Assembly: GCA_948466315.1 (NCBI GenBank)
Contig: CAOJZZ010000002.1
Coordinates: 3,700-67,699 of the forward strand
Direction: 5' to 3'
Source: an uncultured Mycoplasmatota bacterium
Lineage (GTDB): Bacteria > Bacillota_I > Bacilli_A > RF39 > UBA660
Length of the DNA stretch: 64,000 nt
Notes under the pieces: generated by a model
What the model was told of the DNA's origin: nothing
The model's input: only the letters and a program-made list of their open reading frames with translations
Database searches by the model: none
Shown here: positions 38,867 to 64,000 of the stretch, in pieces
How the letters are laid out: each line of letters starts with the position of its first letter
Numbering within the stretch: the first letter of the stretch is position 1
Program-made: the position numbers and the translations under genes

Positions 38867-40420
38867 ATGATTATTAGAAAACCTTATGCTTTTTTGATAA
38901 AGAATTTTAAGAAGATTCATATTTTTCTTTTGGTGTTGTGTTGTTATGTTTATTATAAGAATATGCAAACTAGTGCTTTTATTAAAGAGTTTATTGTATT
39001 AGGTACTTATGATGCTTATAATGAACCAATTACTAAGTATATTCCTTTTTTATTAATGTTTTCTTTGATATTAATTATTTTAGGAAGTGTTACTTTAGTA
39101 CTTTTGTTAAAACATAAGAAGAAACCTTGGAAATTATATCTATTACCAATAGTTGTTTATTCTTTGATGTTTATAGCATTTGTGATGGCTAGAGGGTATT
39201 TTGCTAGTTATACTGGGGAAGATGGTACTGCTGGTATTAGGGCAGTTAGAGATATGCTTTTTATTAGTACTATTTTTGAGTATCCTGTATTTATTGTTTT
39301 TTTGATGCGTATTTTTGGAGTTGATTTGCATAAATTTAACTTTAAAGTGGATGAGGAGTATTTAGAATTAGATAGTAAGGATAGGGAAGAATTAGAAATA
39401 AGTATTGATATTGATAAAGAGTCTTTTAAAAGAGGTTTTAAAAGGCTTCTTCGTAATCTAAATTATGTTTATCAGGAACATAAATTGGTTTGTAATACTT
39501 TGGCTATTATAACACTAGTTATTGTTGCTAAAAATACTTATACATATATCTTTGTTACACATAAGGCTTATAAACAAGGAGATACTTTAAAGGCAAATGG
39601 TTATACTATAAAAATTAATAAAAGTTATTATACTGATAAAGATTATAAAGGGGATTTGATTTCTAAAGAAAATGGATTTGTTGTTTTGGATTTGACTATT
39701 AAAAATAATGAGGCTCCAAGAGAGGTTGATTTTAATAAATTTCATATAATGAATGGCGTTAATAATTATGTTACTACTCATAAGATGTATGGGACAGAAT
39801 TTCAAGATTTTGGTACTACTTATAAAAGTAAAAAATTAAGAAGAGATGAGACTTTGGATCTTATTTTAGTTTATAGAGTATCTAAGAAGTTAAGGACTAA
39901 TAGGTTTGTTTTATATTATCAAGAGTTGAGTAATAATAAGCCATATTTAAGAAAAATCAAATTAAAAATGGATGATGTTTCTACTATAAAAAAGAATAAA
40001 ACTATAAAAATGAATGAAGATTTTAGTTTTGTTGTGAAAAAGAGTAAGGAAACAGTTAATTTTGCAGCTTATGAAATAGCTAATAGTACTGATTATACTT
40101 ATCGAGTTTGTAATACTTCTAATTGTGCTACACATACTGCTAATTATCAAGCCCCTAGTGGTAAGCGTGTTTTGAAAATTGAGTTTTCATCAGATAATTA
40201 TGAAGGTAAAGATATGATTGACTTTTCAACTAAATATGGTAAAATTAAATACATAGATAATAAGAATAAAGAAAGATTTGTTAAAGTAGAAAATCCATTA
40301 TACCGAGTGCATTATGGTAAATATATGTATATTAGTGTTCCAGAAGAAGTATCTAAGGCTAAGTCTATTGAGATAATTTATACAGTTAGAAATAATCAGT
40401 ATGTATATAAATTAAAATAA
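38867..40420 (+). CDS. Polytopic membrane protein with large extracytoplasmic C-terminal domain (possibly DUF4352-like Ig fold)
   Basis: Four or more N-terminal TM segments. The segment GYTIKINKSYYT..GFVVLDLTIKNNEAPREVDFNKFHIMNG resembles DUF4352. Confidence 0.45.
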   Translation: MIIRKPYAFLIKNFKKIHIFLLVLCCYVYYKNMQTSAFIKEFIVLGTYDAYNEPITKYIPFLLMFSLILIILGSVTLVLLLKHKKKPWKLYLLPIVVYSLMFIAFVMARGYFASYTGEDGTAGIRAVRDMLFISTIFEYPVFIVFLMRIFGVDLHKFNFKVDEEYLELDSKDREELEISIDIDKESFKRGFKRLLRNLNYVYQEHKLVCNTLAIITLVIVAKNTYTYIFVTHKAYKQGDTLKANGYTIKINKSYYTDKDYKGDLISKENGFVVLDLTIKNNEAPREVDFNKFHIMNGVNNYVTTHKMYGTEFQDFGTTYKSKKLRRDETLDLILVYRVSKKLRTNRFVLYYQELSNNKPYLRKIKLKMDDVSTIKKNKTIKMNEDFSFVVKKSKETVNFAAYEIANSTDYTYRVCNTSNCATHTANYQAPSGKRVLKIEFSSDNYEGKDMIDFSTKYGKIKYIDNKNKERFVKVENPLYRVHYGKYMYISVPEEVSKAKSIEIIYTVRNNQYVYKLK

Positions 40421-40432
40421 AGGAGAAATAAA

Positions 40433-42229
40433 ATGGGTAAAGATGTCAAAAAGTACATTAAAATTATTGTTACAGTAGTTGTCGTAGGTCTATTTGTTTG
40501 GTTTTTAGTTCTTTTACCATATGTCACTTTTAGGAATGATGAGAAGAGTATGGAAGCGGCGGCTAAGAGATATTTTGAATTAAATAGTAATGAATTACCT
40601 ACTGGTGAGAGGATTGCTACTGTTAGTTTGCAAACATTATATTATAAGGCTTTTTTGAAAGATGATTTTTATATTCCTTATACAAAAGAGGCTTGTTCTG
40701 TTACAGATTCTTGGGTTAAGGTAAAGAAAACTGGAGAAGGGTATAAATACTATACCTACTTGAAGTGTGGAGCTTTAACATCAACAATAGATCATAAAGG
40801 ACCAGTCATTAAATTAAATGGTGATGAGGAAATTACTGTTAATAAAAATGAGGCATATAAGGAGTTAGGTGTTTCAAGTGTTGTTGATAATGTTGATGGA
40901 AAAATTAATACTTCTTCAGTTACTATAAAAGGTAATGTTGATACTAAAAAAGTTGGTACTTATGAGGTTAATTATATAGCTTTTGATAGTTTGAAAAATA
41001 AAACGACAGTTACTAGGAAGGTTAAAGTAGTTGAAAGATTAAAAAATACAGTTAATGAGGCTACAGCTAATACTGGGATATATAAAGGAGCTAATCCTAA
41101 TAATTATTTATATTTATCAGGTATGTTATTTAGAATTGTTGGGTTAGATGGCGATAATGTTAGAGTTGTAGCAGAAGAAGATGTTGCTAATGTTAATTAT
41201 GATGGGTTAGATGATTGGCTTAAATATTATTATAAACATATTAATTCATCTGCTAAGAAGTTGCTTGTTAAAAACAAATATTGTGATATGACTTTGAGTG
41301 AGAATGATCTTAATACAACTAATTGTACAAAGTATACAAAAGAAAGAGAAGTTTATATTCCATCAGTTATTGATGTTAATAATGCACAAGCTGATGATGG
41401 TAATTACTTAAAACCACAGTCTATTTCATGGGTTGCTAATAAAAAAGATAATAAATCAGCATATGTTACTAGACAAGTATTTTTTGATGAATCATATGGA
41501 AAATCATTTATAGTTCAGGATAAAGATTTGAATTGTGGTGTAAGACCAGTATTAACAATTAAAGGTTCTACTTTGGTAAAGTCTGGTACGGGAACAGTTG
41601 ATAATCCTTATTCTTTAGGAGATACTAAAAAGGCAAACGCTGATGATTTAGTTAATACAAGAAATTCTGGTGAATATGTAAAGTATTCTAATATGTTATG
41701 GAGAATCATGGAAGTAAATGATGATGGTACTACTAAAGTGATATCTAATGGTACTTTAAAGAAAGATGGGCAGAATGTTAAGGTTTATTATGAAACTAAG
41801 TCTACTGCTAAAATATATAATCCTAAAGAAAAAGGTAATGTAGGATATTATATTAATAATAAGGCTAGTGAGTTTGTAGATACTTCTTATTTTGTAAATA
41901 AAAAAGTAAGTGTTCCAATATATAAAAATAAGATAAATTATGGTAAGGAGACCGATACAAAAAGCTATACTGTTAAATTATCTGCTCCTAATATGTATGA
42001 TATATTTAGTGCATTTGTATATGATAATAGTATGCAGTCATATTGGTTTATTAATTCTTCAAAGGAAAGATTTGCAAAAGGGGTTACTACTGATATTGGT
42101 GTAGCAGTAGATAGTAATGTAAGTGATTATTTACCTACAGGTGTAAGAGTAGTTGGTAATCTTAATAAGAAGACTATGATTATGAAAGGAAAAGGTACTA
42201 AGGATAATCCTTATATAATAACAAAATAA
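40433..42229 (+). CDS. N-terminally anchored surface protein: Ig-like (DUF5011-type) domain + two repeated modules each ending G.GT.DNPY
   Basis: TM at residues 10-30. GPVIKLNGDEEITV..VGTYEVNYIAFDS..VTRKVKVV Ig-like domain. Two modules: MLFRIVGLDG...CGVRPVLTIKG..GTGTVDNPY and MLWRIMEVND...TGVRVVGNL..GKGTKDNPY. Confidence 0.5.
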   Translation: MGKDVKKYIKIIVTVVVVGLFVWFLVLLPYVTFRNDEKSMEAAAKRYFELNSNELPTGERIATVSLQTLYYKAFLKDDFYIPYTKEACSVTDSWVKVKKTGEGYKYYTYLKCGALTSTIDHKGPVIKLNGDEEITVNKNEAYKELGVSSVVDNVDGKINTSSVTIKGNVDTKKVGTYEVNYIAFDSLKNKTTVTRKVKVVERLKNTVNEATANTGIYKGANPNNYLYLSGMLFRIVGLDGDNVRVVAEEDVANVNYDGLDDWLKYYYKHINSSAKKLLVKNKYCDMTLSENDLNTTNCTKYTKEREVYIPSVIDVNNAQADDGNYLKPQSISWVANKKDNKSAYVTRQVFFDESYGKSFIVQDKDLNCGVRPVLTIKGSTLVKSGTGTVDNPYSLGDTKKANADDLVNTRNSGEYVKYSNMLWRIMEVNDDGTTKVISNGTLKKDGQNVKVYYETKSTAKIYNPKEKGNVGYYINNKASEFVDTSYFVNKKVSVPIYKNKINYGKETDTKSYTVKLSAPNMYDIFSAFVYDNSMQSYWFINSSKERFAKGVTTDIGVAVDSNVSDYLPTGVRVVGNLNKKTMIMKGKGTKDNPYIITK

Positions 42230-42241
42230 GTAGGTGATGTT

Positions 42242-43063
42242 ATGCCCAAAGTAAGAAATAAAAAAAGAAAAGTTATTGATAAAAAGTGGTTGATTCTTTT
42301 TGTGATATTAGTTGTTGGTATAGGAATAGGATATATAGTATTTAATAAGTTTAATCTTAAACCAATATATAGTATAGATAGTCGTATTAATAATATAAAA
42401 AAAGAGCAAAAGAAAGATGAAAAAGACTATCGTACTATTGGATGGTTAAGAGTACAAGGAACTAATATCGATGCTCCAATTATTGGGTATAATACAAGGG
42501 GGGAGGAAGTTAATGTCACTAAAGATAATTATTTATGGAATGAAATTAATGAAAAAAAATTTTATAATAAAGTAAATATTATGGGTCATAATATTTTGAA
42601 TTTGTCTTCTACTCCTAGAGTTGGTGATGTTAATTTTTCTAGGTTTGATGATTTGATGGCCTTTGTTTATACTGATTTTGTTGAGGATAATAAATATATT
42701 CAATATACTGTAGATGGAAAAGATTATCTTTATAAAATATTTGCGGTGTATTTTGATTATCAGTTTAATTTGAACTTGTCTTATCAAGGTAATTATTCTA
42801 AAGATGATCTTTCTACATATTTAAAAAAAGTTAAGAAAAAGAGTATTTATGATTTTGATGTTAATGTAGATAGTGATGATAAAATTATTTCTTTGATAAC
42901 ATGTACTCGAATGTTTGGAGAAAATTCAACTTATGAATTAATTGTTAATGCCAGACTTGTTCATGAAAATGAGAAATATACAAATTATGATGTTGTAGAA
43001 AATAAAAATTATAAAAAAATAAAAAAAATACTGAAAGGTGATGAGGTAAATGATGAAGCATAA
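42242..43063 (+). CDS. Class B sortase
   Basis: N-terminal TM. Blockwise match to SrtB: TIGWLRVQGTNIDAPII, NIMGHNI (catalytic His), LYKIFAVY, IISLITCT (catalytic TLxTC-type Cys), ELIVNARLV (Arg). Confidence 0.75.
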   Translation: MPKVRNKKRKVIDKKWLILFVILVVGIGIGYIVFNKFNLKPIYSIDSRINNIKKEQKKDEKDYRTIGWLRVQGTNIDAPIIGYNTRGEEVNVTKDNYLWNEINEKKFYNKVNIMGHNILNLSSTPRVGDVNFSRFDDLMAFVYTDFVEDNKYIQYTVDGKDYLYKIFAVYFDYQFNLNLSYQGNYSKDDLSTYLKKVKKKSIYDFDVNVDSDDKIISLITCTRMFGENSTYELIVNARLVHENEKYTNYDVVENKNYKKIKKILKGDEVNDEA

Positions 43064-46048: not shown

Positions 46049-46525
46049 ATGAATAAAGGTATGTTAACAGTAGGTATAATTTTACTTAGTATAATATCAT
46101 TACTATTAATCAATGTATTGACTAACTATTCCACAGGGGGGGAATTGGATTACTATTTAGTAAAGGATACGACAGAAGCTGCAATGGCTGACGCTTTAGA
46201 TGTTGAATATTATCGTTTAAATTCTATGCAACGTATGGATAAGGAAAAATTTATTGAGAGTTTTTTAAGAAGATTTGCTGATGCAGTGGATAATACTCGT
46301 TCATATGAGGTTAAATTTTACGATATAAATGAAGTTCCTCCTAAAGTAAGTATTAAGGTTGATTCATTAACAGTTTTGAGCTTTGCACATGAGGCTGCTA
46401 ATATTTCAACCAATTTAGATGCTGTTTTAGAAACTGATTATAAGGCCGATACTTTTACAACTGCAAATCTTAGGGATCCAGATAGTGATGTTGGAAAAGC
46501 GATTGAAGCTAGAAAAATAGATTAA
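46049..46525 (+). CDS. Pilin-like / pseudopilin-like protein (158 aa)
   Basis: Short polar leader, Gly, then hydrophobic helix: MNKG-MLTVGIILLSIISLLLINVL. First gene of the Tad block. Confidence 0.4.
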   Translation: MNKGMLTVGIILLSIISLLLINVLTNYSTGGELDYYLVKDTTEAAMADALDVEYYRLNSMQRMDKEKFIESFLRRFADAVDNTRSYEVKFYDINEVPPKVSIKVDSLTVLSFAHEAANISTNLDAVLETDYKADTFTTANLRDPDSDVGKAIEARKID

Positions 46526-52877: not shown

Positions 52878-52910
52878 TATTGTGTGTAAATCCGTGATTG
52901 AGGTGATGGT

Positions 52911-55589: not shown

Positions 55590-55901
55590 GTGAATTATTT
55601 AATTCCAGCTAATACAAAAAGGGGACAATTAATATTAGGAATATTTCGTCCTTTTGATTTGATATTGTTTGGTGTTGGTGTACTTATTACTGTTGTTTTT
55701 CTGGCTATTATGCCTTTAACCTCTACATTTGTAACTATTCTTATTTTAAGTCCTGCTCTTATTTCTGGATTTTTAGTAATGCCAATTCCTTATTATCATA
55801 ATATGTTGAATGTTATTATTGAAATGTATGAGTTTTTTACATCAAGACAAACTTATCGATGGAGAGGATGGTGTTATAAAAATGGCCAAGAAAAGAAGTA
55901 G
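55590..55901 (+). CDS. PrgI/VirB3-like small membrane protein
   Basis: 103 aa, IPANTKRGQLILGIFRPFDLILFGVGVL.. with two TMs. Immediately upstream of and overlapping the VirB4 gene, as in the Tn916 orf17-orf16 arrangement. Confidence 0.55.
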   Translation: MNYLIPANTKRGQLILGIFRPFDLILFGVGVLITVVFLAIMPLTSTFVTILILSPALISGFLVMPIPYYHNMLNVIIEMYEFFTSRQTYRWRGWCYKNGQEKK

Positions 55902-56433: not shown

Positions 56434-58216
56434 TAGTATAAGAAGTGAATTAGCTCCTAAAGGACTTTCTTTTTCAACAAGTGATTTTTTCATTAGTGAT
56501 AAATATGCTACTATTTTGACTGTTGTTTCTTATCCTAAATATATTCTTCCTGGTTATTTATCAACACTTACTAATATGCCTGGAATTAAAGTAGTTGTAA
56601 AACATATACCTGTTCCTTTTCAAGATATGTCTAAAATGTTAAATAGACAAATTGCTGATTTGAAAGAACGTTATAGGAATGAAAGAGATCAAACTTCTAG
56701 AGAAAGATATCGACAGGATGCAGAGAGTTTAGAGTATTTTGTTTCAATGATTGCGGGTAGTCAAGCTAGAATATTTGATTTTCAAATGCATATTATGATT
56801 ACTTCTGATACTAAAGAGGATTTAGAATTGAAGAAAGTAAATGTTAAAAATTATTTAGATGCGATGGAGCTTAAAGGAATTTCTCTTAGATTTGAACAAG
56901 AGAAAGTATTAAAATCAATTTTACCAATTTTTCCTTCTCAAGATATTGAACAAAGAGTAGGAACTCCAATTCCATCTGTAACTATTGCTGCTATGTATCC
57001 ATTTATTTTTGATAGTATTAAAGATCCAGGATTATCGACACTTTTAGGAATTGATTTTTCTGGAGGAGTTATATTATTTAATCAGTTTTTATATAAAATT
57101 AGAAAAGAAAATAATAGAAATAATGCTAACATGATTATTCTTGGTACTTCTGGTTCTGGTAAATCTACTGCGGCTAAGTTGATGCTTAGAACTCATATTA
57201 GGAATGGTTGTCAACTTGTTATTATAGATCCTGAGGATGAGTTTAGAGAAATTACTTATACTTATGGTGGAGATACTGTTGATATTGGTAAAGGTGGAGA
57301 GTTTGGTTTAATTAATCCATTAGAAGTTGTTATTGATGCAGATGAAGAGGAAATTAAACAAGGATTAGGGTATACTGTACTTACTAGAACTTTACAATTT
57401 TTAAAAGCTTTTATGAAGTATTATGATCCATCAATTGAAGAAGATGTTTTAACTATGTTTAGTGAAATTGTTCAAGATACTTATAAACGTTTTGGTATTG
57501 ATTTTAATACTGATTTTTCTACTTATACTTCAGCTGATTATCCAACATTTAGTGATGTTTACGCAACAATTCGTGGTAGATTAATGTCTATTACAGAACA
57601 GACTAAAGAACGAGATATTATGGAGAGATTGGAATTAAAAGTAAGACCAATTACTAAAGAGTTGAAATTTTATTTTGATGGTCATACTACTATTCGTAGA
57701 GATAGTGATTTTATGGTATTTAATATTAAAGAATTAATGAATAGTGATTCTAATGTTCGTAATGCTTTATTTTTCAATGTTTTGAAATATGCTTGGGGTC
57801 TTTGTTTAGATTATAATGTAGATACTATAATGATGGTTGATGAGGCACATGTATTATTAGGAGAAAATAATGTTTTAGGTGCTGATTTCTTAGCTCAGGT
57901 ACAAAGACGTGCTAGAAAATATAATACTGGTACTATAATCATTACTCAACAACCAAGTGATTTTTCATCTCCTGCTGTTATAACACAAGGAAAAGCTATA
58001 TTTGATAATGCTTCTTATTATTTAGTGATGGGACTTAAGAAGCAAGCTGTTGAAGATTTATCTTTATTAATAGATTTGAATGATAGTGAGAAAGAAAGTA
58101 TTAAGAGATATTCACAAGGAGAAGCGTTATTTGTTTGCGGAAATAGACGAATGCGTATAAATGTTGCAGTTACTAAGGAAGAGTTAGATTCCTTTGGTAG
58201 TGGTGGAGGATTATAA
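56426..58216 (+). CDS. VirB4-like T4SS ATPase, central and C-terminal part (596 aa)
   Basis: Walker A ILGTSGSGKST, Walker B IMMVDEAH, IIITQQPSD. TTG start in the +1 frame relative to the previous ORF. Confidence 0.8.
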   Translation: MSNSIRSELAPKGLSFSTSDFFISDKYATILTVVSYPKYILPGYLSTLTNMPGIKVVVKHIPVPFQDMSKMLNRQIADLKERYRNERDQTSRERYRQDAESLEYFVSMIAGSQARIFDFQMHIMITSDTKEDLELKKVNVKNYLDAMELKGISLRFEQEKVLKSILPIFPSQDIEQRVGTPIPSVTIAAMYPFIFDSIKDPGLSTLLGIDFSGGVILFNQFLYKIRKENNRNNANMIILGTSGSGKSTAAKLMLRTHIRNGCQLVIIDPEDEFREITYTYGGDTVDIGKGGEFGLINPLEVVIDADEEEIKQGLGYTVLTRTLQFLKAFMKYYDPSIEEDVLTMFSEIVQDTYKRFGIDFNTDFSTYTSADYPTFSDVYATIRGRLMSITEQTKERDIMERLELKVRPITKELKFYFDGHTTIRRDSDFMVFNIKELMNSDSNVRNALFFNVLKYAWGLCLDYNVDTIMMVDEAHVLLGENNVLGADFLAQVQRRARKYNTGTIIITQQPSDFSSPAVITQGKAIFDNASYYLVMGLKKQAVEDLSLLIDLNDSEKESIKRYSQGEALFVCGNRRMRINVAVTKEELDSFGSGGGL

Positions 58217-58233: not shown

Positions 58234-60711
58234 GTGATGTGGATGCCATATGAGAGTAATCGACGTAATAATAAAAGTAATTCGTCAGGTAATTTAGGTA
58301 ATCAGACTAATAATGGTGACTTATTTTCTCAAGGTGGAAAATCTAGTTCCACTAATCCTTATTCATCAATTAAGGGTAATCCATTAAATCAAAAAAATTC
58401 TTCTAATACTGATTCTGCTTCAGCTCCTACAGATAAAAAACAACAAGAAAAAGAAGCTACTAAAAATGCTGCTAAGACAGCTGCTAAGGGGGCTGCAACT
58501 TATGTTGCTGGTGGTGCTGGTGGAAAGGCTGTAGATGTTTTAGCTAATACAAAAGCAGGACAACAAGTACTTAATAATGGTGCTGAGTTATTGAATAAGA
58601 TACCAGGTGTTGGTAAAACAGCTAAAAAGTTAGATGATTCTGGTACTATAAAAAAGGCTGATAAAGCTCTTGATATTGCTGGTGGTGGTAAAGTTAATCA
58701 ACCTATGCCTTCTGGTAATAATAAAATGTCTGGTGATAGTAAAGGAGCTACTGGTTCTCCTAGTGAAAGCGGTGGAGGAGGTTCGTTTGGGCCAAAGCCT
58801 CCATTTGGACCTAAATCACCTTTTGGTAAAAGCAAAGATAGAGATTCCGAAGATGGTCAAGCAGATTCAGATTATAATGGAATGGGATTTGGTCACATAC
58901 CAGTTGGTGTAAAAATTGCAATAGCAGCAATAATTAGTATGGGAGGATTACTTTTTTTATTAGTTATATTGTTTTTTAATATGACTAGTAATATTAAGGA
59001 TTTTGATGATGCACTAGGAGCTAGTATTGCAGCTGGTGATGAGACTGGAAATATTGATTATGAGGCTACTAGTAAAGAAGCCCAAAAATTTTATGATAGA
59101 GTTAATGATGTTAAACTTAGTTTTCAAGCTAAAGGAAAAACTGTTGATTATTTAAAAATTGTTGCAGTATATCATATTTTAAATGAAAATGATTCTAGTA
59201 TTACATATGATGATATGACTACTTCTGCTATTGAAGAGATAGCTGATAGTATGTTTGACAATAATAGTTATTCAGAAGATGTTTTTAGAGAAAATTTAAT
59301 AAATGATATTTTTCCTAAATATTTATCAGATATGACAGATACAGGGTATGAAAAATTAGCCGATGATGTTTTTGATTATATTGATAGATATAATACTTTT
59401 ATTGGTAAGGAATCATCTTCTACTACTTGTGCGTCACTTGGTAGTTGTGTTTATGATATTAAAGGATTTTCTTTTGATGGTAGAAATGTTTCTAAAGCTA
59501 TGAATATTAAAGATTTAAAAGTTAGGTTAATGCAGTGTGGTCCTCCATATGGTCCTGGAAATTATTCAACACCAATTGATGGTGAAGATTTAGTGAATTT
59601 TGAAGATTATATTGCGGGAGTTGCTTATGGCGAAATTGGACCAGATGCTCCTCTTGAAGCTATGAAGGCTCAAATGATAGCAGCAAGAAGTTATGCGCTT
59701 GCTAGGCCTACAGCTATGGGAAATGCTCTGGGTAAAAAACTGGAAGAGGAAAATGGGCAATGGATTTTACAAATATCATCTTGTGTTGCTGATCAGGTTT
59801 TCTGTAATATTGATAAAGGTTGTTCACATTCTGGTGGTGGTCAACAAGGTGGTTATCTTAAAAGTGGTGTTAATTTTCCTGGGCTTTCAGTTTATAAAGG
59901 TCCTTTGCCAGAGGAGCACAATATTCGTGTTGCAGCTGCTGAAACACAGGGAGAGGTTTTACTTAATAGTCAAGGCTATGTTATACAAACTGGTTTTTTA
60001 GCTACTGAGTCTAATATGTTTACTAGTATGGCTAATAGTGGTCTTAATTATAAACAAATTTTATTGCAGGTTTATAATCAAGGGTCTAGGGCATATGGTG
60101 CTGATAGTATTTCTGAGTCGAATTGTAATGATGGTAATAATTCTGGTTGTAGTAGTAGTGATGATGATTCTAGTGGAGGTACTGGTAATGTAGTAAAGGC
60201 TAGAGGCGCATATGCTAATTGGAAACAGTTTGGTGCTCCTTGGTCTAATGTTATGGTTGGTGCAAGTGGGCAAAATATTGGTGCTATAGGTTGTTTGGCC
60301 ACATCAGTTGCTATATTAATTGCTAAAAGTAGAGAGAATACAGTGATTAAGGATTTTAATCCTGGAACCTTTGTTTCATATTTAAATAGTCATGGTGGTT
60401 TTATTGGTGGTGGATTATTTGTTTGGTCTTCAGCTACAACTGTTGCTCCAACATTCCATTATCAAGGTCAAGTTAGTGTGGCAGGTTTAAATCAAGCTGA
60501 TAAATTAAATAAAATAAAAAGTTTGGTAAATCAGGGATATTATGTTACTGCTGAGGTAAAAGGTTCAACAGGACAGCACTGGGTAGCAATAGATTCCGTA
60601 TCAGGTAATAATATTATTATGATGGATCCAGGTAGTAATTCAACTAATATGTGGAGTCAGTACAATTGGCAAAATACTAGTACTTTAGGATATTATAAAG
60701 TAAGTAAATAG
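58234..60711 (+). CDS. T4SS-associated cell-wall hydrolase: disordered N-terminal region - TM - SpoIID/LytB-like domain - papain-like (C39-like/CHAP-like) cysteine peptidase
   Basis: SpoIID signature FEDYIAGVAYGEIGPDAPLEAMKAQMIAARSYALARP..AAETQGEVLL. C-terminal W..PW..G..IGAIGCLATSVAIL...GQHWVAIDS (Cys/His). TM IAIAAIISMGGLLFLLVILFF. Start may be the ATG at 58243. Confidence 0.65.
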   Translation: MMWMPYESNRRNNKSNSSGNLGNQTNNGDLFSQGGKSSSTNPYSSIKGNPLNQKNSSNTDSASAPTDKKQQEKEATKNAAKTAAKGAATYVAGGAGGKAVDVLANTKAGQQVLNNGAELLNKIPGVGKTAKKLDDSGTIKKADKALDIAGGGKVNQPMPSGNNKMSGDSKGATGSPSESGGGGSFGPKPPFGPKSPFGKSKDRDSEDGQADSDYNGMGFGHIPVGVKIAIAAIISMGGLLFLLVILFFNMTSNIKDFDDALGASIAAGDETGNIDYEATSKEAQKFYDRVNDVKLSFQAKGKTVDYLKIVAVYHILNENDSSITYDDMTTSAIEEIADSMFDNNSYSEDVFRENLINDIFPKYLSDMTDTGYEKLADDVFDYIDRYNTFIGKESSSTTCASLGSCVYDIKGFSFDGRNVSKAMNIKDLKVRLMQCGPPYGPGNYSTPIDGEDLVNFEDYIAGVAYGEIGPDAPLEAMKAQMIAARSYALARPTAMGNALGKKLEEENGQWILQISSCVADQVFCNIDKGCSHSGGGQQGGYLKSGVNFPGLSVYKGPLPEEHNIRVAAAETQGEVLLNSQGYVIQTGFLATESNMFTSMANSGLNYKQILLQVYNQGSRAYGADSISESNCNDGNNSGCSSSDDDSSGGTGNVVKARGAYANWKQFGAPWSNVMVGASGQNIGAIGCLATSVAILIAKSRENTVIKDFNPGTFVSYLNSHGGFIGGGLFVWSSATTVAPTFHYQGQVSVAGLNQADKLNKIKSLVNQGYYVTAEVKGSTGQHWVAIDSVSGNNIIMMDPGSNSTNMWSQYNWQNTSTLGYYKVSK

Positions 60712-60726: not shown

Positions 60727-61503
60727 ATGAAGAAAAAAAGATATATTGTATTATTAATTATTTTAGCTATTTATGTTATTGCAATGTATTTTTTTCTAGG
60801 GGCTAATCATTTAAAAAAAGAGAAGGATTATACCACTATTTTAGTAGGAGATTCAACTATTTGGAATTATTCTAATAAAAAATGGTTGAATGTTACTAGT
60901 AAATCTACAATAAAAGATATTAATTGGAAAGAGTTTACTGTTTATATAGATAATAAAAAATTAGGTAATTATTATTTATGGCATGATGATAAGTGGTATT
61001 TGTTTGATAAGGATAAAAATGCAGTTAACTCATCAGGTAATTTATTTGCTTATCGTTCAAATTTTCCTTTAAAAGTAAAAGAGTTTAGTACTGAGCCAAT
61101 AGTTAATATGGATGTTGTTAGTCAAGTATTAGAGGAAAATAAATTAGATGTTTCTTCTAAATTTACTGTTAATACACTTACTAAATTTGATATAGATAAT
61201 GATAATATCTTGGAGGAATTTTATATAATCAGTAATGTTTTTGCAATAGATTTTGTTCCAGATACTTTATTTTCTATTGTTTTTATGGTAAAAGGGAATC
61301 AGATTTATTATATTTATAGAGATATTGCCCCTAATAAGACGACTAATGGGTGTAAGCCATATTTTAATAGTTTTTTCGATGTTGATTTAGATAATAAATA
61401 TGAGTTTATTTTGAGTTGTGGTCGTTATAGTGTTAAGCAACCTGTTGATATGTTATATAAATTTGAAAAAGATGAATTTAAAATTTTAATTTCCAATCAA
61501 TAA
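60727..61503 (+). CDS. Membrane-anchored hypothetical protein (occupies the position of VirB8/TcpC-like components)
   Basis: N-terminal TM plus ~225-aa ectodomain. The role is inferred from position only. Confidence 0.3.
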   Translation: MKKKRYIVLLIILAIYVIAMYFFLGANHLKKEKDYTTILVGDSTIWNYSNKKWLNVTSKSTIKDINWKEFTVYIDNKKLGNYYLWHDDKWYLFDKDKNAVNSSGNLFAYRSNFPLKVKEFSTEPIVNMDVVSQVLEENKLDVSSKFTVNTLTKFDIDNDNILEEFYIISNVFAIDFVPDTLFSIVFMVKGNQIYYIYRDIAPNKTTNGCKPYFNSFFDVDLDNKYEFILSCGRYSVKQPVDMLYKFEKDEFKILISNQ

Positions 61504-61559: not shown

Positions 61560-63863
61560 ATGAAATTTAAATTTAGAACAGATTCGCATGATTTAGCGGT
61601 TTTTGTGGCATTTGCTATTTTTCTACTTTATATAGTGTGTCTAGGTGTAGTTAATTTATCTACTTTTGCATCAGAAGGAGTTTTATCTGGATTTAATCCA
61701 TTTCCTGCTTTTTCTCCTGAGTATTTAAAAACTACGTTTATTCTTTACTTTTTATGCTTAGTTTGCTTTTTTATTAGTGTAAGTTCTTATTTCTTTGATA
61801 GAGAGAAGGGAATTGGTTTTACAACTGATAAAAAGGATAAGGGATATTCTAGATGGGCAAAGGATAAGGAGATTAAGCAAGAGTTAGAAAGAGTTGGAAT
61901 TTTAGAAGAAAATATTAGTTGTGCAGGAGTTCCATTAATTTTAAATAGTGATGAAATGTGGGTAGATAATAGTGAGTATCATTCTTTAATTATTGGTGCT
62001 ACTGGTTCTGGTAAGACTCAAACTGTTATTTTACCAATGGTTCATAGTTTAGCTAAAGCTAGGGAATCTATGATTATTACTGATCCTAAAGGTGAAATTT
62101 ATGAAAAGACAAGTATGATGCTTAGGGATCGTGGTTATCAGATTTTACTTCTTAACTTCCGTGATCCGCAAAATGGTAATGCTTGGAATCCAATGACTTT
62201 ACCATATAGAATGTATCAGGAAGGTAATCAAGATAAAGCAATTGAGTTATTAGACGATTTGGCTTTGAATATTTTGTATGATGAATCTAATAAAAATGCT
62301 GATCCTTTTTGGGAAAAAACTTCAGCTGATTATTTTTCTGGTGTTGCTTTAGGTCTTTTTGAAGATGCTAAGGAAGAAGAAATTAATATTAATAGTATTT
62401 CTTTAGCTACTACAGTAGGTGAAGAGAAATTTGGTGGGTCTACTTATATTAAAGAATATTTTGGTTTTAAAGATCCAGGAAGTGCTGCTGCTATTAATGC
62501 ATCTAGTACTATTATGGCACCTACAGAAACAAAAGGAAGTATTTTATCTGTTTTTAAACAAAAGGTAAAATTATTTGCTTCTCGTGATAATTTGAGTGAA
62601 ATGCTTTCTCATAGTGATATTGACTTGGAAAGTATAGGTGAAAAGCCTACAGCGGTTTTTATAGTAATTCAAGACGAAAAGAAGACTTACCATTCATTAG
62701 TTACTATCTTTTTGAAGCAGGTTTATGAAACATTGATTGCTGTTGCTCAAAAGAATGGAGGCTCTTTACCTGTTAGAACTAATTTTTTGTTAGACGAGTT
62801 TGCTAATATGCCACCGTTAAAAGATGTTACTACTATGATTACAGCGGCTCGATCTAGAAAAATTAGATTTACAATGATTGTACAAAACTTTGCACAGTTA
62901 GATTCTGTTTATGGAAAAGAAGATGCTGAAACTTTAAGGGGTAACTGTGGTAATTTGATTTATTTAGTTACAACTGAGTTAAAGGCATTGGAAGAGATTT
63001 CTAAGATGTGTGGTGAGGTAAAGTCTAAAAAAGATGATAAGACAGCTTCAACACCACTAGTTACAGTATCTGATTTACAAAGAATGAAACAGTTTGAAGT
63101 TATTATTTTAAGAATGCGGAAGCAACCATTTAAGACTAAGTTTACACCTTATTATAAATTAGATTGGGGTAGGACTTATCCTAAAGCAACTTATCCAACA
63201 AGGGTTAAAGAGGAAGTTCATACATTCGATATTAAGGAGTATGTAAAAACACAAAAGAAAAAGAAATTATTAGAAATGATGAACTCATCTGATGGTAGTT
63301 CGAAAGAGATGATGGGTGGTAATCCATTAGATTCTATGGCTAAGATGAATTCTGTTTCTGGAATGCCTCCTATGGATCCAAGACGATTAATGCAACAAGG
63401 GAATATGCCTTTTCCACCATCAGATGATGCTAAATTACCAGACTTTTTGACTCGACCTGATAATGGTAGTGTTGTTCATCCTGGTAATGATAGTTTTAAT
63501 TCTTCATTTAATCCTCCTTTTAAACCTCGTAAGAAAGAACATGAGGATATGAGTTTTAATATTGATGACTTAGTAAAAAAGATTGATGCTAAGATTGCAG
63601 AGCTTGAAGAAGAAGAGAGACAAAATAAGAAGAGAGAAGAAGAGAGGAAAAAGTCAATTTCACAAAATGATATGGAAAAGACTGATAAGGTTTTAGATGA
63701 TGATTCAATAAAAAAAGAAGTTTTGGATTCTTTTGATGATACAGTAGATGATAAAGATAAATTAAATACTTCACAGGAAAAAGCATCGATTAATTATGAT
63801 TTAAATTTAGACGATGAAGAAGATGATGATGATGATTTCTTTGATGATTTTTTTGATAATTGA
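61560..63863 (+). CDS. VirD4/TraG-type type IV coupling protein with long disordered acidic C-terminal tail
   Basis: Two N-terminal TMs, Walker A IIGATGSGKTQ, Walker B FLLDEFANMP, MIVQNFAQL. The last ~220 aa are low complexity, ending DDEEDDDDDFFDDFFDN. Confidence 0.8.
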   Translation: MKFKFRTDSHDLAVFVAFAIFLLYIVCLGVVNLSTFASEGVLSGFNPFPAFSPEYLKTTFILYFLCLVCFFISVSSYFFDREKGIGFTTDKKDKGYSRWAKDKEIKQELERVGILEENISCAGVPLILNSDEMWVDNSEYHSLIIGATGSGKTQTVILPMVHSLAKARESMIITDPKGEIYEKTSMMLRDRGYQILLLNFRDPQNGNAWNPMTLPYRMYQEGNQDKAIELLDDLALNILYDESNKNADPFWEKTSADYFSGVALGLFEDAKEEEININSISLATTVGEEKFGGSTYIKEYFGFKDPGSAAAINASSTIMAPTETKGSILSVFKQKVKLFASRDNLSEMLSHSDIDLESIGEKPTAVFIVIQDEKKTYHSLVTIFLKQVYETLIAVAQKNGGSLPVRTNFLLDEFANMPPLKDVTTMITAARSRKIRFTMIVQNFAQLDSVYGKEDAETLRGNCGNLIYLVTTELKALEEISKMCGEVKSKKDDKTASTPLVTVSDLQRMKQFEVIILRMRKQPFKTKFTPYYKLDWGRTYPKATYPTRVKEEVHTFDIKEYVKTQKKKKLLEMMNSSDGSSKEMMGGNPLDSMAKMNSVSGMPPMDPRRLMQQGNMPFPPSDDAKLPDFLTRPDNGSVVHPGNDSFNSSFNPPFKPRKKEHEDMSFNIDDLVKKIDAKIAELEEEERQNKKREEERKKSISQNDMEKTDKVLDDDSIKKEVLDSFDDTVDDKDKLNTSQEKASINYDLNLDDEEDDDDDFFDDFFDN

Positions 63864-63886
63864 TAAAAAGAGAGGGAAAGAAGAAT

Positions 63887-64000
63887 ATGAATTTTAATAT
63901 GCTTAAGAATATGAATAATATTAATAATAATAAAGATAAAGATCAATCAACGTCTAAAAATAATAAAAATAATGATTTGCATAAAAATATGTTGAAATTT
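63887..64000 (+). CDS. Hypothetical protein, N-terminal fragment (continues beyond the window)
   Basis: GAGAGGGAAAG RBS, ATG at 63887. Open N/K-rich frame runs to the window end. Confidence 0.4.
   Translation, partial: MNFNMLKNMNNINNNKDKDQSTSKNNKNNDLHKNMLKF

What the first reader, a model, noticed from the sequence alone, without database searches (positions are those of the whole stretch)
38867..64000. Tad/Flp-type pilus operon joined directly to a minimal Gram-positive T4SS: candidate composite pilus-assisted transfer or secretion machine
Seen: 22 consecutive plus-strand genes with 12-30 nt gaps or overlaps. The first block (38867-50636) reads as one operon: polytopic membrane protein, Ig-like surface protein, class B sortase, 994-aa Cys-rich exoprotein, pilin-like protein, CpaB-like (TM+SAF), TadA-type ATPase (Walker A/B, Asp and His boxes), then two TadB/C-topology proteins. 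Next comes a promoter-driven 53-aa pilin, a pseudopilin-like gene and a TadZ-like gene. After only a 58-nt gap carrying a TTGACA-17-TATTAT promoter, the T4SS set follows: two VirB2-like genes, VirB6-like, PrgI/VirB3-like, VirB4 (Walker A/B), a SpoIID+Cys-peptidase hydrolase, an anchored unknown, and VirD4 (Walker A/B). No relaxase, integrase, replication or partition gene lies between 37.8 and 64 kb. Established: monoderm conjugative T4SSs (Tn916, ICEBs1, pCW3, pCF10 types) are described as pilus-less and rely on surface adhesins. Type IV pilus-assisted conjugation is known from diderm systems (R64 thin pilus, GI-type ICEs). Inference: this locus may couple a Tad-type filament and a sortase-linked adhesin module to a monoderm T4SS for mate or host contact. 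To my knowledge that architecture has not been described.
Basis: partly seen in the sequence, partly recalled or inferred. Interest (0 to 1): 0.85.

Follow-up and report, generated by a model that had tools for sequence, protein, structure and literature searches.

The report
Chromosomal pilus-plus-conjugation machine in RF39 bacteria
An uncultured, small-genome gut bacterium (order RF39) carries, fixed in its chromosome and inherited vertically, the pilus-like plus type IV secretion gene set that Bacillus and Listeria conjugative plasmids use, but with no DNA-nicking enzyme beside it, so it has probably been taken over for a host function.

Summary
Positions 38867-64000 carry 21 complete + strand genes plus the start of a 22nd. 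They form a surface-protein block, a Tad-like filament block and a monoderm T4SS block. No relaxase or integrase lies inside or just downstream.

The claim that this architecture is undescribed does not hold. Known Gram-positive conjugative plasmids carry the same modules beside a relaxase. B. thuringiensis pBMB68 has DUF5411, SAF/CpaB, a TadZ-like ATPase, a TadA-like ATPase and two membrane proteins next to a split VirB4, VirB3, VirB6 and VirD4. The pAW63/pXO2, pLS20 and Listeria plasmid families look similar. In that literature the ATPase is called "VirB11".

What looks new is the setting. The window comes from an RF39-order bacillus, a gut lineage with a reduced genome and many auxotrophies. 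There the set sits between greA and rhodanese-dedA-rmuC in conserved synteny.
- Relatives occur in 80 examined species genomes out of at least 579 matches.
- VirB4 is as conserved as GreA, while the surface parts diverge fast.
- VirB2-like proteins form arrays of paralogs.

The Tad and T4SS blocks are adjacent in most lineages but not all.

Best reading: a domesticated mating-pair-formation machine without its own relaxase, analogous to the Patescibacteria T4SS. Its substrate is unknown. The sortase link is unsupported.

The parts
38867..40420 (+). 517-aa membrane protein with 4 predicted TM segments and an extracellular DUF4352-like domain; first gene of the block
   Evidence: Pfam DUF4352 weak hit. 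TM scan. Syntenic directly after greA in L087/L088.
40433..42229 (+). 598-aa N-terminally anchored surface protein with a bacterial Ig-like domain. Its C-terminal motif is shared with the 398-aa protein that follows VirD4.
   Evidence: PF16403 3.9e-17. PDB Ig-like hits. Paralogy with the 398-aa protein.
42242..43063 (+). Class-B-like sortase (273 aa, TLITC-type Cys). No substrate with a sorting signal is encoded in the locus.
   Evidence: PF04203 8.7e-8 and TIGR03064 4e-15, below cut-off. No sorting signal in any locus protein.
43050..46034 (+). 994-aa secreted protein with 37 Cys and no known domain. It holds the position of the large adhesin or surface protein in plasmid tra operons. Diverges fast (31-37% between RF39 species).
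   Evidence: No Pfam, NCBIfam or PDB hit. Positional match to the pBMB68 851-aa protein and pLS20 gene 34 (PMC8557374). Identities.
46049..46525 (+). DUF5411 protein (158 aa) with an N-terminal MNKG plus hydrophobic helix. A marker of this Tad-like module, also present in pBMB68 and a Listeria plasmid.
   Evidence: PF17424 2.9e-45. pBMB68 annotation and Listeria weak hit. N-termini.
46555..47361 (+). CpaB/RcpC-like protein (TM plus SAF plus RcpC domain)
   Evidence: PF16976 28.5 bits against a 28.8 cut-off; SAF; TIGR03177 3e-11. 28% identity over the full length to the pBMB68 SAF protein, 6e-23.
47393..48910 (+). TadA/CpaF/FlaI-type secretion ATPase with a variable low-complexity C-terminal tail
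   Evidence: PF00437 5e-28. PDB: FlaI 2e-19, CpaF 6e-17, VirB11 1e-13. Plasmid 'VirB11/TadA' proteins 28-36% identical, down to 1e-49. Core about 83-90% conserved in RF39.
48925..49827 (+). TadB-position polytopic membrane protein (300 aa)
   Evidence: TM topology. Weak match to the pBMB68 protein in the same position, 1.8e-4. hhalign to canonical TadB/C only E 0.019. AF2 model unusable, pLDDT 56.
49827..50636 (+). TadC-like platform protein (269 aa, T2SSF-like cytoplasmic domain)
   Evidence: hhalign to canonical TadB/TadC: probability 86%, E 5.2e-6, 122 columns. pBMB68 positional homolog 3.4e-4.
50714..50875 (+). 53-aa Flp-sized pilin candidate. Invariant N-terminus MK(E/A)ATG-ELN followed by a hydrophobic helix. 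Own promoter-like site at 50653-50681.
   Evidence: Alignment of 15 orthologs. Promoter scan. Small proteins of similar build in the Listeria plasmid.
50889..51380 (+). 163-aa pilin-like protein with conserved leader M-R-D-A-x-G-G plus a hydrophobic helix and 6 Cys. One or two copies per species.
   Evidence: N-terminal alignment. No homology to TadE/F/G by hhalign.
51404..52423 (+). TadZ/CpaE-position ParA/MinD-like protein (339 aa)
   Evidence: AAA_31 weak hit, 0.008. The AAA ATPase at the equivalent place in pBMB68 passes AAA_31.
52427..52455 (+). Promoter-like site TTGACA-17-TATTAT in the 58-nt gap before the T4SS block
   Evidence: 11 of 12 matches, best in the region.
52482..53474 (+). 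Two VirB2-like (T4SS_pilin) hairpin proteins, 110 and 187 aa. Members of a paralog array of 1-5 copies in relatives, many with variable N-terminal ectodomains.
   Evidence: PF18895 hit in 25 of 57 RF39 paralogs, best 9.6e-8. Window 187-aa copy 0.0022. Array sizes.
53497..55557 (+). VirB6/TrbL-like polytopic protein (686 aa) with a long variable C-terminal region
   Evidence: PF19597 TrbL_4 30.3 bits against a 27 cut-off. Only 25-58% conserved.
55590..55901 (+). VirB3/PrgI-position small membrane protein (103 aa)
   Evidence: Position and size only; no HMM hit. Same position as the PrgI-family gene in pBMB68.
55810..58216 (+). Split VirB4: an N-domain ORF (TrsD/TraC-like, 207-aa ORF) plus the 596-aa ATPase
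   Evidence: NF045975 model positions 94-276 (9.6e-15) and 293-891 (3e-104). PF26593 TraC-like on orthologs. The split is conserved in all relatives and in pBMB68.
58234..60711 (+). 825-aa cell-wall hydrolase candidate with a SpoIID/LytB domain, in the VirB1 position
   Evidence: PF08486 3.6e-11, TIGR02669 1.2e-12. No peptidase domain found. 38% conserved.
60727..61503 (+). 258-aa anchored protein of unknown function. A VirB8 role is possible from its position but was not shown.
   Evidence: No hits. Syntenic in relatives.
61560..63863 (+). VirD4-type coupling protein, CD1115 family
   Evidence: NF045973 300.7 bits against a 250 cut-off; PF02534 1.3e-56. 31% identity to pBMB68 VirD4, 1e-71.
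63887..64000 (+). Start of the 398-aa anchored surface protein, a paralog of the Ig-like protein's C-terminal part. Last gene of the block.
   Evidence: Complete in L001-L003, followed by rhodanese, DedA and RmuC.

Best explanation
This is a chromosomally fixed, vertically inherited copy of the mating-pair-formation gene set found on pAW63/pXO2/pLS20/pBMB68-type Gram-positive conjugative plasmids. It has three blocks: surface proteins, a Tad-like filament module and an MPF_FATA-type T4SS. It has lost its own relaxase, oriT, replication and integration functions and has become a core organelle of the RF39 order.

Inferred mechanism:
- The FlaI/CpaF-type ATPase, working on the TadC-like and TadB-position platform with CpaB-like and TadZ-like partners, polymerises the 53-aa pilin and minor pilins. 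These share an M-[KR]-[DE]-A-x-G leader. The result would be a thin filament through the wall.
- The large variable exoproteins and the arrays of VirB2-like proteins make and specify contact with a partner cell.
- The SpoIID-type hydrolase opens the peptidoglycan.
- The split VirB4, VirB3, VirB6 and VirD4 form the membrane channel and move a macromolecule across it.

Shown: the homologies, the synteny, the absence of mobility genes and the conservation pattern. Inferred: that a filament forms, that the two modules act together, and what is transported. The cargo could be DNA of in-trans elements such as the MOBV element in this window, or proteins.
For: Organism:
- VirB4 relatives are named Mycoplasma sp. 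CAG:877, Ca. Faecimonas and Bacilli/Tenericutes MAGs.
- Ca. Faecimonas is GTDB genus CAG-877, order RF39, 28% GC, 1.4 Mb (PMC8035907).

Chromosomal and vertical:
- Housekeeping genes lie on both sides (dnaE, lspA, ruvX, mltG, greA; then rhodanese, dedA, rmuC).
- The same flanks appear in species whose VirB4 is only 67-90% identical.
- No relaxase, integrase or replication gene lies in or after the block.

Breadth: at least 579 species genomes match, and the 80 examined all carry the T4SS core in the same order.

Selection:
- Window against L087: VirB4 87% and GreA 88%.
- Window against L005: VirB4 90, TadA core 83, TadB/C 78-79, VirD4 72; but VirB6 43, hydrolase 38, VirB2 52-58; flanking DedA 57 and rhodanese 52.

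Plasmid homology:
- pBMB68 carries MobP3, VirD4, TrbL, PrgI, a 227-aa protein, VirB4, NlpC/P60, an SLH protein, an 851-aa protein, DUF5411, SAF, an AAA ATPase, a T2SS-type ATPase and two membrane proteins.
- BLASTP matches: VirB4 5e-85, VirD4 1e-71, ATPase 1e-33, CpaB 6e-23, N-domain 6e-14, TadB/C-position 2e-4 and 3e-4.
- The same pattern is tabulated for pAW63 (PMC1196294) and pLS20 (PMC8557374).

Tad-like nature: PDB ranking FlaI, then CpaF, then VirB11. TadC-like against canonical TadB/C 86%. Shared pilin leaders.
Against: - No prepilin peptidase is encoded in the 64-kb window.
- The pilin lacks the Flp G/XXXXEY motif.
- The TadB-position protein, the 163-aa protein and DUF5411 show no detectable homology to canonical Tad parts.
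- A filament has never been seen for this module, even in the plasmids. The pLS20 authors state that Gram-positive elements form no conjugative pili (PMC8557374).
- Adjacency of the two blocks is not universal. Of 56 informative species loci, 34 have no Tad gene within 10 kb upstream of VirB4. Some have expanded VirB2 arrays there and others have unrelated genes. Three of 32 Tad-side loci lack the T4SS core downstream. I could not check whether those genomes keep the other block elsewhere.
- A relaxase encoded elsewhere cannot be excluded, and one MOBV relaxase is in this window.
Confidence: 0.8

Rival explanations
1. It is still a conjugation machine. The host-encoded T4SS and VirD4 mobilise small integrative elements, or chromosomal DNA, using relaxases supplied in trans. 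Its maintained function would then be DNA exchange among RF39 cells.
For: - VirD4 is a full member of the CD1115 family of conjugative coupling proteins and is 72-82% conserved.
- Every closest characterised relative is conjugative.
- A MOBV relaxase plus serine recombinase element lies 36 kb upstream in the same window.
- Serine-recombinase elements sit directly upstream of the T4SS in L012, L022 and L023.
Against: - No relaxase or oriT is linked to the locus in any of about 160 loci examined. tblastn with the window MOBV protein found none.
- Serving selfish elements does not readily explain GreA-level conservation across an order, or the diversifying pilin arrays.
Confidence: 0.3
2. It is an exapted contact-dependent organelle for living on or from other cells, as in Patescibacteria. 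The filament and variable pilins would bind a partner, and the T4SS would deliver or extract proteins or other material needed by an auxotrophic cell.
For: - The feature set matches that reported for Patescibacteria: chromosomal, relaxase-less, split TrsD plus VirB4, VirB3, VirB6, and arrays of divergent PF18895 VirB2-like pilins. That system is essential for epibiotic growth (PMC12102498, PMC12857230).
- RF39 has a reduced genome lacking fatty-acid, amino-acid and vitamin synthesis and is uncultured (PMC6784871).
- Motors are conserved while surface parts diverge fast, and paralogs expand.
Against: - There is no direct evidence that RF39 is an epibiont.
- No effector genes were recognised.
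- The resemblance to Patescibacteria is by features, not a tested phylogeny. The best-scoring curated VirB4 family is that of Mycoplasma ICEs, and the plasmid VirB4 matches listed are all from Bacillus thuringiensis plasmids.
Confidence: 0.3
3. It is a DNA-uptake (competence) apparatus. A Tad-like pilus would capture DNA and a T4SS-derived channel would import it, for recombination or as a nucleotide source.
For: - From general knowledge, Tad-like pili serve transformation in Micrococcus luteus and the ComB T4SS imports DNA in Helicobacter.
- The review read describes ComB uptake and archaeal Ced import working with type IV pili.
- rmuC is a conserved downstream neighbour.
Against: - ComB-type uptake systems lack VirD4 (section heading in PMC12857230), whereas VirD4 is retained and conserved here.
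- No ComEA or ComEC lies in the locus.
- rmuC is flanked by unrelated housekeeping genes.
Confidence: 0.1
4. It is an ordinary integrative conjugative element caught in one genome, and the adjacency of the two blocks is accidental.
For: All components have their closest characterised homologs on mobile elements.
Against: - Identical flanks and gene order occur in species with 67-90% VirB4 identity.
- No integrase, relaxase or repeats lie at the borders.
- The locus is present in every one of the 80 species loci examined.
- The pairing of the two blocks also holds on plasmids.
Confidence: 0.03

Closest known systems
tra/MPF regions of Bacillus cereus-group and Listeria conjugative plasmids (pAW63, pXO2, pBT9727, pBMB68, pLM80-like) and of the B. 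subtilis pLS20 family
   Same: Same module set, and homologous gene by gene where testable:
- a large surface protein;
- DUF5411;
- a SAF/CpaB-like protein;
- a ParA-like ATPase;
- a FlaI/CpaF-type ATPase, called 'VirB11' in those papers;
- two polytopic membrane proteins;
- small pilin-like proteins;
- a VirB2-like hairpin;
- VirB6, VirB3, a split VirB4, a wall hydrolase and a CD1115-type VirD4.
Sources; PMC1196294; PMC8557374.
   Different: - The plasmids carry a relaxase (MobP3 in pBMB68), replication and partition genes, and they are mobile.
- The order of the blocks differs: T4SS before Tad in pBMB68, after it here.
- Here the set is chromosomal with housekeeping flanks, has no relaxase, and is conserved across an order.
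- Here it has VirB2-like paralog arrays and a SpoIID-type rather than NlpC/P60-type hydrolase.
Patescibacteria (CPR) chromosomal T4SS (Southlakia/Nanosynbacter type; PMC12102498, PMC12857230)
   Same: - A monoderm MPF_FATA-derived T4SS, chromosomal and without a relaxase.
- A TrsD-like N-domain protein plus VirB4, with VirB3 and VirB6.
- Arrays of divergent VirB2-like (PF18895) pilins.
- Host organisms with reduced genomes and many auxotrophies.
- Type IV filaments work alongside the T4SS.
   Different: - A different phylum.
- VirD4 is adjacent here but usually distant in Patescibacteria.
- The filament system there is a classical T4P encoded elsewhere, not a Tad-like module fused to the T4SS operon.
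- Essentiality and an epibiotic life are shown there and unknown here.
- The phylogenetic relation of the two VirB4 clades was not tested.
Tad/Flp (type IVc) pilus systems, e.g. Caulobacter Cpa, Aggregatibacter Tad, Clostridia tad operons
   Same: - A CpaF/TadA-class ATPase.
- A CpaB/RcpC-like protein.
- A T2SSF-like platform protein.
- A ParA-like TadZ-position protein.
- A very small pilin with a short leader ending in Gly, plus larger pilin-like proteins.
   Different: - No TadV prepilin peptidase in the locus.
- No Flp motif (E at +1, no Y at +6).
- The TadB-position protein and the minor pilins are not detectably homologous to their canonical counterparts.
- DUF5411 is not a canonical Tad part.
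- All family HMM scores are below their cut-offs.
Type IV pilus-assisted conjugation in diderms (R64 thin pilus, PAPI-1)
   Same: A type IV filament system is encoded with a T4SS and is thought to help partner contact (PMC12857230).
   Different: Those are T4bP or PilS-type pili in diderm hosts and lie on mobile elements with relaxases. They have no homology in gene content with this locus beyond the ATPase superfamily.

Membership tests
MPF_FATA-type (monoderm) type IV secretion system | VirB4-family ATPase | tested here: met
   PF19044, PF12846 and DUF87 hits. NF045975 3e-104 and CD1110 family 1.9e-47, both below the equivalog cut-offs. 28% identity, 5e-85, to pBMB68 VirB4.
MPF_FATA-type (monoderm) type IV secretion system | VirD4/T4CP coupling protein | tested here: met
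   NF045973 CD1115 family, 300.7 bits against a 250 cut-off; PF02534 1.3e-56.
MPF_FATA-type (monoderm) type IV secretion system | VirB6/TrbL-like polytopic channel protein | tested here: met
   PF19597 TrbL_4, 30.3 bits against a 27 cut-off.
MPF_FATA-type (monoderm) type IV secretion system | VirB3/PrgI-like protein | tested here: inconclusive
   No Pfam or NCBIfam hit. Only size, one TM segment and the position before the VirB4 N-domain, as in pBMB68.
MPF_FATA-type (monoderm) type IV secretion system | VirB8-like (NTF2-fold) protein | tested here: inconclusive
   The 258-aa anchored protein is the positional candidate. No Pfam, NCBIfam or PDB sequence hit. No structure prediction was possible with a deep alignment.
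MPF_FATA-type (monoderm) type IV secretion system | VirB1-like peptidoglycan hydrolase | tested here: met
   SpoIID/LytB domain, 3.6e-11. A second, peptidase domain was not found.
Conjugative element (ICE or plasmid) | Relaxase and oriT linked to the T4SS | tested here: not met
   No relaxase family hit on any ORF from 37.8 kb to the end of L001, nor in L004-L006 and L087-L088. The only relaxase in the window is a MOBV gene at 980-2359, on a separate small element.
Conjugative element (ICE or plasmid) | Integrase/excisionase or replication and partition genes at the borders; variable presence between strains | tested here: not met
   The borders are greA and rhodanese/dedA/rmuC in distant species. 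Empty sites were not searched for.
Tad/Flp (type IVc) pilus | TadA/CpaF-type ATPase | tested here: met
   PF00437. PDB hits FlaI 2e-19 and CpaF 6e-17, ahead of VirB11 1e-13. All NCBIfam equivalogs are below their cut-offs.
Tad/Flp (type IVc) pilus | TadB and TadC platform proteins (T2SSF family) | tested here: inconclusive
   No Pfam T2SSF hit for either protein. hhalign gives 86%, E 5e-6 for the TadC-like protein, but 2%, E 0.019 for the TadB-position protein. The AF2 model had low confidence.
Tad/Flp (type IVc) pilus | Flp pilin with the G/XXXXEY processing motif | tested here: not met
   The pilin N-terminus is MK(E/A)ATG-ELN(M/L)T: E at +1, no Y at +6.
Tad/Flp (type IVc) pilus | TadV/CpaA prepilin peptidase | tested here: not met
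   No Peptidase_A24 hit on any scanned ORF of the window. The rest of the genome could not be examined.
Tad/Flp (type IVc) pilus | CpaB/RcpC and TadZ/CpaE accessory proteins | tested here: inconclusive
   CpaB: RcpC 28.5 against 28.8 bits, SAF 20.7 against 21, TIGR03177 3e-11. TadZ: AAA_31 only 0.008.
Tad/Flp (type IVc) pilus | TadE/TadF-type pseudopilins | tested here: not met
   hhalign of the 163-aa family and of DUF5411 against TadE/F/G from three canonical loci gives probability of about 1%.
VirB2/TrbC-like T4SS pilin (PF18895) | Signal peptide plus a two-helix hairpin matching the family HMM | tested here: met
   25 of 57 RF39 paralogs match PF18895 at E up to 0.01, best 9.6e-8. The window copies themselves are weak (0.0022) or negative.
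Sortase-dependent surface display or pilus | Substrate with a C-terminal sorting motif, hydrophobic stretch and basic tail | tested here: not met
   A motif and tail scan of all locus proteins found none.

The most novel reading that the evidence does not exclude
RF39 bacteria are abundant, uncultured gut Bacilli that lack fatty-acid, amino-acid and vitamin synthesis. On this reading they depend on this domesticated machine to attach to other cells and to exchange material with them. That would be a second, independent case, inside Bacillota, of the essential relaxase-less T4SS with VirB2-like pilin arrays so far considered unique to Patescibacteria. In addition, the 'VirB11' region of pAW63/pLS20-type plasmids would be a real filament-forming Tad-like system, which would mean that some Gram-positive conjugation systems are piliated.
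Probability: 0.2. Interest if true: 0.85.

Novelty: new variant of a known kind. Interest (0 to 1): 0.58.

Why it matters
Reviews state that monoderm T4SSs lack pilins and pili, with Patescibacteria as the single exception (PMC12857230). This locus bears on that statement in two ways.

First, a whole order of walled Bacillota keeps a relaxase-less chromosomal T4SS with arrays of VirB2-like proteins. The T4SS is tied to a type IV-filament-like module, and its motor is as conserved as a housekeeping gene.

Second, the same filament-like module is a standard but overlooked part of well-studied Gram-positive conjugative plasmids, where it is filed as "VirB11 plus unknowns".

If the locus is functional, it gives a concrete lead on how RF39 interacts with other cells. 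RF39 is prevalent in human and animal guts and has never been cultured. It also gives genetically tractable stand-ins, pLS20 and pAW63, for testing what the module does.

Tried and rejected
1. AlphaFold2 of the TadB-position protein. The model had pLDDT 56.5 and pTM 0.30, so it was not sent to a fold search.
2. Pfam and PDB profile searches for the TadC-like family found nothing. Only hhalign against hand-collected canonical TadB/C gave a signal.
3. Pfam on the plasmid counterparts of TadB/C also found no T2SSF hit, so transitive assignment failed.
4. hhalign of the 163-aa 'pseudopilin' family and of DUF5411 against TadE/F/G, and against each other, was negative.
5. PDB sequence searches for the hydrolase, the 258-aa protein and the 994-aa protein found nothing.
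6. I tried to reach VirB4 relatives outside RF39. The genome scan seeded with them returned only RF39-type loci. The relation to the Patescibacteria VirB4 clade therefore stayed untested.
7. I checked whether the loci that lack Tad genes upstream of the T4SS are the other half of the Tad loci that lack a T4SS downstream. tblastx found no real overlap, so the fate of the missing block in those lineages is unknown.
8. Literature searches for RF39 together with T4SS, pili or Tad found no description of this locus. The only paper mentioning DUF5411 reports a CpaF/PilC/DUF5411 operon in gut Clostridia as an uncharacterised system.
9. The ordinary-ICE reading was rejected on synteny and the lack of mobility genes.

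Full report
**What is in the sequence.**

From 38867 to the end of the window there are 21 complete + strand ORFs. A 22nd begins near 63887 and was recovered whole from an identical contig (L001). Most junctions are 12-31 nt or overlaps. Four are longer, at 56-96 nt.

- Ig-like surface protein.
- Class-B-like sortase.
- DUF5411, a strong hit at 2.9e-45.
- CpaB/RcpC plus SAF, a hair under the cut-offs.
- T2SSE-family ATPase.
- TrbL_4/VirB6.
- VirB4.
- SpoIID-domain hydrolase.
- A VirD4 that passes the curated cut-off of the CD1115 family of conjugative coupling proteins.

A 207-aa ORF matches positions 94-276 of the Mycoplasma-ICE VirB4 model, and the 596-aa ORF matches positions 293-891.

The TTGACA-17-TATTAT site at 52427-52455 is real and is the best promoter-like site in the region. 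A TG-extended TTGTTA-17-TATAAT site precedes the pilin gene. In this 27% GC DNA, however, such sites are no more frequent than in shuffled sequence. No + strand terminator-like site is found.

**Where it sits.**

The window is chromosomal. Upstream lie typA, dnaE, lspA, rluD, a hybrid kinase, a rhomboid protease, ruvX, mltG, an O-methyltransferase, U32 peptidases, an HD hydrolase and greA. Downstream of VirD4 come the 398-aa surface protein, then rhodanese, dedA, rmuC and a tRNA synthetase.

No relaxase, integrase, replication or partition gene lies in or next to the block.

VirB4 relatives are named Mycoplasma sp. CAG:877, Candidatus Faecimonas and uncultured Bacilli/Tenericutes. Ca. Faecimonas is GTDB genus CAG-877 of order RF39, with 28% GC and 1.4 Mb (PMC8035907).

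RF39 is an uncultured gut lineage. It has a peptidoglycan wall and a reduced genome, and it lacks many pathways including fatty-acid synthesis (PMC6784871, PMC10868615).

**Inheritance.**

Contigs from CAG-877-type genomes show the same genes in the same order and with the same flanks. In one direction the order runs from greA through the 517-aa, Ig-like, sortase and about 950-aa proteins to VirB4. In the other it runs on to rhodanese, dedA and rmuC.

A scan of one genome per species found at least 579 genomes with a relative. The best 80 are all RF39-type MAGs with VirB4 67-75% identical to the window. Every one has the order VirB2(n), VirB6, VirB3, N-domain, VirB4, [hydrolase], VirD4. Where the contig allows, rhodanese, dedA and rmuC follow.

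Conservation is very uneven.
- Against one relative (L087), VirB4 is 87% identical and GreA 88%.
- Against another (L005): VirB4 90, TadA core 83, TadB/C-position 78-79, N-domain 77, pilin 73, VirD4 72.
- In the same comparison: VirB6 43, hydrolase 38, VirB2-like 52-58. The flanking DedA and rhodanese are 57 and 52.
- The 994-aa exoprotein is 31-37% identical to its counterparts in L087 and the metagenome loci.

Motors are held as tightly as housekeeping genes, while exposed parts diverge quickly. That is what one expects of a working machine whose surface meets a changing partner.

**Are the two blocks really coupled?**

From the T4SS side, the Tad block lies directly upstream in the window clade. 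It also does so in 20-22 of 56 species loci with at least 7 kb of upstream sequence.

The other 34 have no Tad gene within 10 kb. In some, the VirB2-like array has grown to fill the space (L042, L059, L070, L084). In others, unrelated genes sit there: Schlafen/AlbA and paralogous anchored proteins in L007, and a serine recombinase, LysM and Fic in L012.

On a neighbour-joining VirB4 tree, the adjacent state occupies the window clade and several basal branches, and the disrupted state occupies derived clades. Adjacency therefore looks ancestral.

From the Tad side, a metagenome scan seeded with the TadZ-position protein gave two results. All 36 loci with enough upstream sequence have TadA/B/C upstream. 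Of 32 loci with enough downstream sequence, 29 have the T4SS core downstream. The three exceptions keep one VirB2-like gene and then diverge.

I could not determine whether the disrupted lineages keep the other block elsewhere in the genome.

**Is the first block Tad-like?**

The evidence is mixed.

In favour:
- The ATPase matches solved FlaI (2e-19) and CpaF (6e-17) better than VirB11 (1e-13).
- The TadC-position family aligns to canonical TadB/TadC from Rhizobium, Carboxydocella and Photobacterium at 86% probability, E 5e-6, over the cytoplasmic domain.
- The 53-aa pilin has an invariant MK(E/A)ATG-ELN start followed by a hydrophobic helix.
- The 163-aa family starts with M-R-D/E-A-x-G-G and a hydrophobic helix. 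The two therefore share a short M-[KR]-[DE]-A-x-G leader, as prepilins processed by one peptidase would.

Against:
- There is no Flp motif.
- No prepilin peptidase is encoded in the window.
- The TadB-position protein gives only E 0.019 against canonical TadB/C.
- The 163-aa family and DUF5411 have no detectable relation to TadE/F/G.
- Every curated Tad HMM scores below its cut-off.

I therefore call the module Tad-like by architecture. I do not file it as a member of the Tad family.

**The decisive comparison.**

Searching plasmids with the ATPase and with VirB4 showed that the composite is not new. B. thuringiensis pBMB68 is 68 kb, typed conjugative, with a MobP3 relaxase. It encodes the following on one strand:
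- relaxase, VirD4 (CD1115 family), a 126-aa VirB2-like hairpin, TrbL, PrgI, a 227-aa protein and a DUF87 VirB4;
- NlpC/P60, then an SLH protein and an 851-aa protein;
- a DUF5411 protein, a SAF-domain protein, an AAA ATPase, a T2SS/T4P-type ATPase and two membrane proteins of about 300 aa;
- small proteins, including a DUF4320 protein.

BLASTP links the window proteins to their pBMB68 counterparts:
- VirB4 5e-85
- VirD4 1e-71
- ATPase 1e-33
- CpaB-like 6e-23
- N-domain 6e-14
- the two membrane proteins, 2e-4 and 3e-4, each to the protein in the same position

A Listeria plasmid shows the surface proteins, a DUF5411-like protein, 'tadA', two proteins of about 265 aa, and 48- and 56-aa hydrophobic proteins built like the RF39 pilin.

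The published tables for pAW63/pXO2/pBT9727 and for the pLS20 family list the same pattern. In pAW63 these are CDS 9-10, 14/15 and 19-23. In pLS20 they are genes 34 and 36-41, then 48, 49 and 52-54. Both papers call the ATPase VirB11, and the pLS20 paper states that Gram-positive elements form no conjugative pili (PMC1196294, PMC8557374).

[quoted passage not shown] A 2022 study lists a CpaF/PilC/DUF5411 operon in gut Clostridia as uncharacterised (PMC9523054).

The architecture is thus catalogued, although it is rarely read as a filament system.

**What is different here.**

1. The set is chromosomal, lacks a relaxase and is inherited vertically across an order.
2. The VirB2-like genes form arrays.
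   - Of 57 RF39 paralogs, 25 match Pfam T4SS_pilin (PF18895), best 9.6e-8.
   - Species carry 1-5 copies. Many are 300-450 aa, with a variable N-terminal ectodomain ahead of the hairpin.
3. This feature set has otherwise been reported only for the Patescibacteria T4SS: chromosomal, no relaxase, TrsD-like N-domain plus VirB4, VirB3, VirB6 and divergent PF18895 pilin arrays. That system is essential for epibiotic growth, and a 2025 review calls it unique among monoderms (PMC12102498, PMC12857230).
4. I found no paper that connects RF39 with a T4SS, pili or Tad.

**How it most likely works.**

My best-supported reading is a domesticated mating-pair-formation machine (confidence 0.8 for this identity).

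Shown: the homologies, the chromosomal synteny, the absence of linked mobility genes and the pattern of selection.

Inferred:
- The ATPase and platform assemble the 53-aa pilin and minor pilins into a filament.
- The large exoproteins and VirB2-like arrays mediate and specify contact.
- The SpoIID-type enzyme opens the wall.
- VirB4, VirB3, VirB6 and VirD4 translocate a macromolecule.

The cargo is open. A conserved family-typical VirD4 argues for substrate export rather than uptake.

One option is DNA of in-trans elements. A MOBV relaxase plus serine recombinase element lies at 980-4522 of this window. Recombinase-bearing insertions abut the T4SS in some species.

The other option is a Patescibacteria-like role in living off partner cells. 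That would fit RF39's auxotrophies and the diversifying surface parts. I give these two readings about equal weight, roughly 0.3 each. DNA uptake gets about 0.1 and an ordinary ICE about 0.03.

**The sortase.**

The gene is real and syntenic. No protein of the locus carries a C-terminal sorting signal, so 'sortase-linked adhesin' is not supported. The substrate may be encoded elsewhere, or it may be unconventional.

**Verdict.**

Novelty: a new variant of a known kind. Interest is moderate to fairly high. The reasons are the parallel with Patescibacteria in an abundant uncultured gut lineage, and the fact that it recasts the 'VirB11 region' of model Gram-positive plasmids as a candidate filament system that can be tested genetically.

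Noticed in passing
window 980-7419 (- strand genes at 980-2359, 2483-4522, 7078-7419), next to the tyrS fragment at 123-953: A small integrative mobilizable element: a Mob_Pre (MOBV) relaxase, a large serine recombinase, small unknown ORFs and a Mutator-family transposase fragment. It is the only relaxase in the window and a possible in-trans client of the chromosomal T4SS/VirD4.
   Followed up: partly
window 30367-33835: A four-gene islet inserted between the O-methyltransferase and U32 peptidase genes: unknown, Amidase_3, an NlpC/P60 hydrolase whose N-terminus gives a weak T4SS_pilin hit, and unknown. The NlpC/P60 part is 35% identical to the T4SS hydrolase of pBMB68. A homolog sits after VirB4 in metagenome locus L171. 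It may be a second, detached T4SS wall hydrolase.
   Followed up: partly
window 55810-58216; also L004-L086 and pBMB68 (L090 19245-21830): VirB4 is encoded as two ORFs, an N-domain of about 180-207 aa and a 596-aa ATPase that overlap by a few bases. This holds in every RF39 relative and in the Bacillus plasmid. It is therefore a conserved split, not a frameshift error.
   Followed up: yes
window 50714-50740, 50889-50912, 46049-46063: The pilin (MKEATG), the 163-aa protein (MSNAFGG here, MRDAxGG in relatives) and DUF5411 (MNKG) all begin with a very short charged leader ending in Gly, followed by a hydrophobic helix. No A24 prepilin peptidase was found in the 64-kb window.
   Followed up: partly
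window 48500-48910: The TadA-like ATPase ends in a low-complexity tail of about 130 aa rich in Q, S, V and P. Its length and sequence vary between species (total protein lengths 426-625 aa), while the core stays 83-90% identical.
   Followed up: no
window 40433-42229 and L001 6161-7357 (starts at window 63887): The Ig-like protein near the start of the block and the 398-aa protein that ends it share a C-terminal domain ending in G-K-G-T-K-x-x-P-Y, with faint DUF6273 hits. In several species a copy of the 398-aa gene sits inside the VirB2-like array instead.
   Followed up: partly
L087 and L088 13408-13581 (- strand): A 57-aa remnant of an ISL3-family transposase lies between the TadC-like gene and the pilin gene in a related species, leaving a gap of about 1.2 kb. 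The junctions with promoter-like sites seem to tolerate insertions.
   Followed up: no
L012 5-4709; L007 437-6259: In species where the Tad block is not upstream of the T4SS, the space holds either a serine recombinase, a 5x LysM protein and a Fic/HTH protein (L012), or a Schlafen/AlbA_2 protein and tandem paralogous anchored proteins (L007). These look like insertions or cargo.
   Followed up: partly
window 37847-38710: A 287-aa secreted protein of unknown function lies between greA and the first gene of the block. It is absent from that position in L087/L088, where a different 224-aa gene lies before greA.
   Followed up: no
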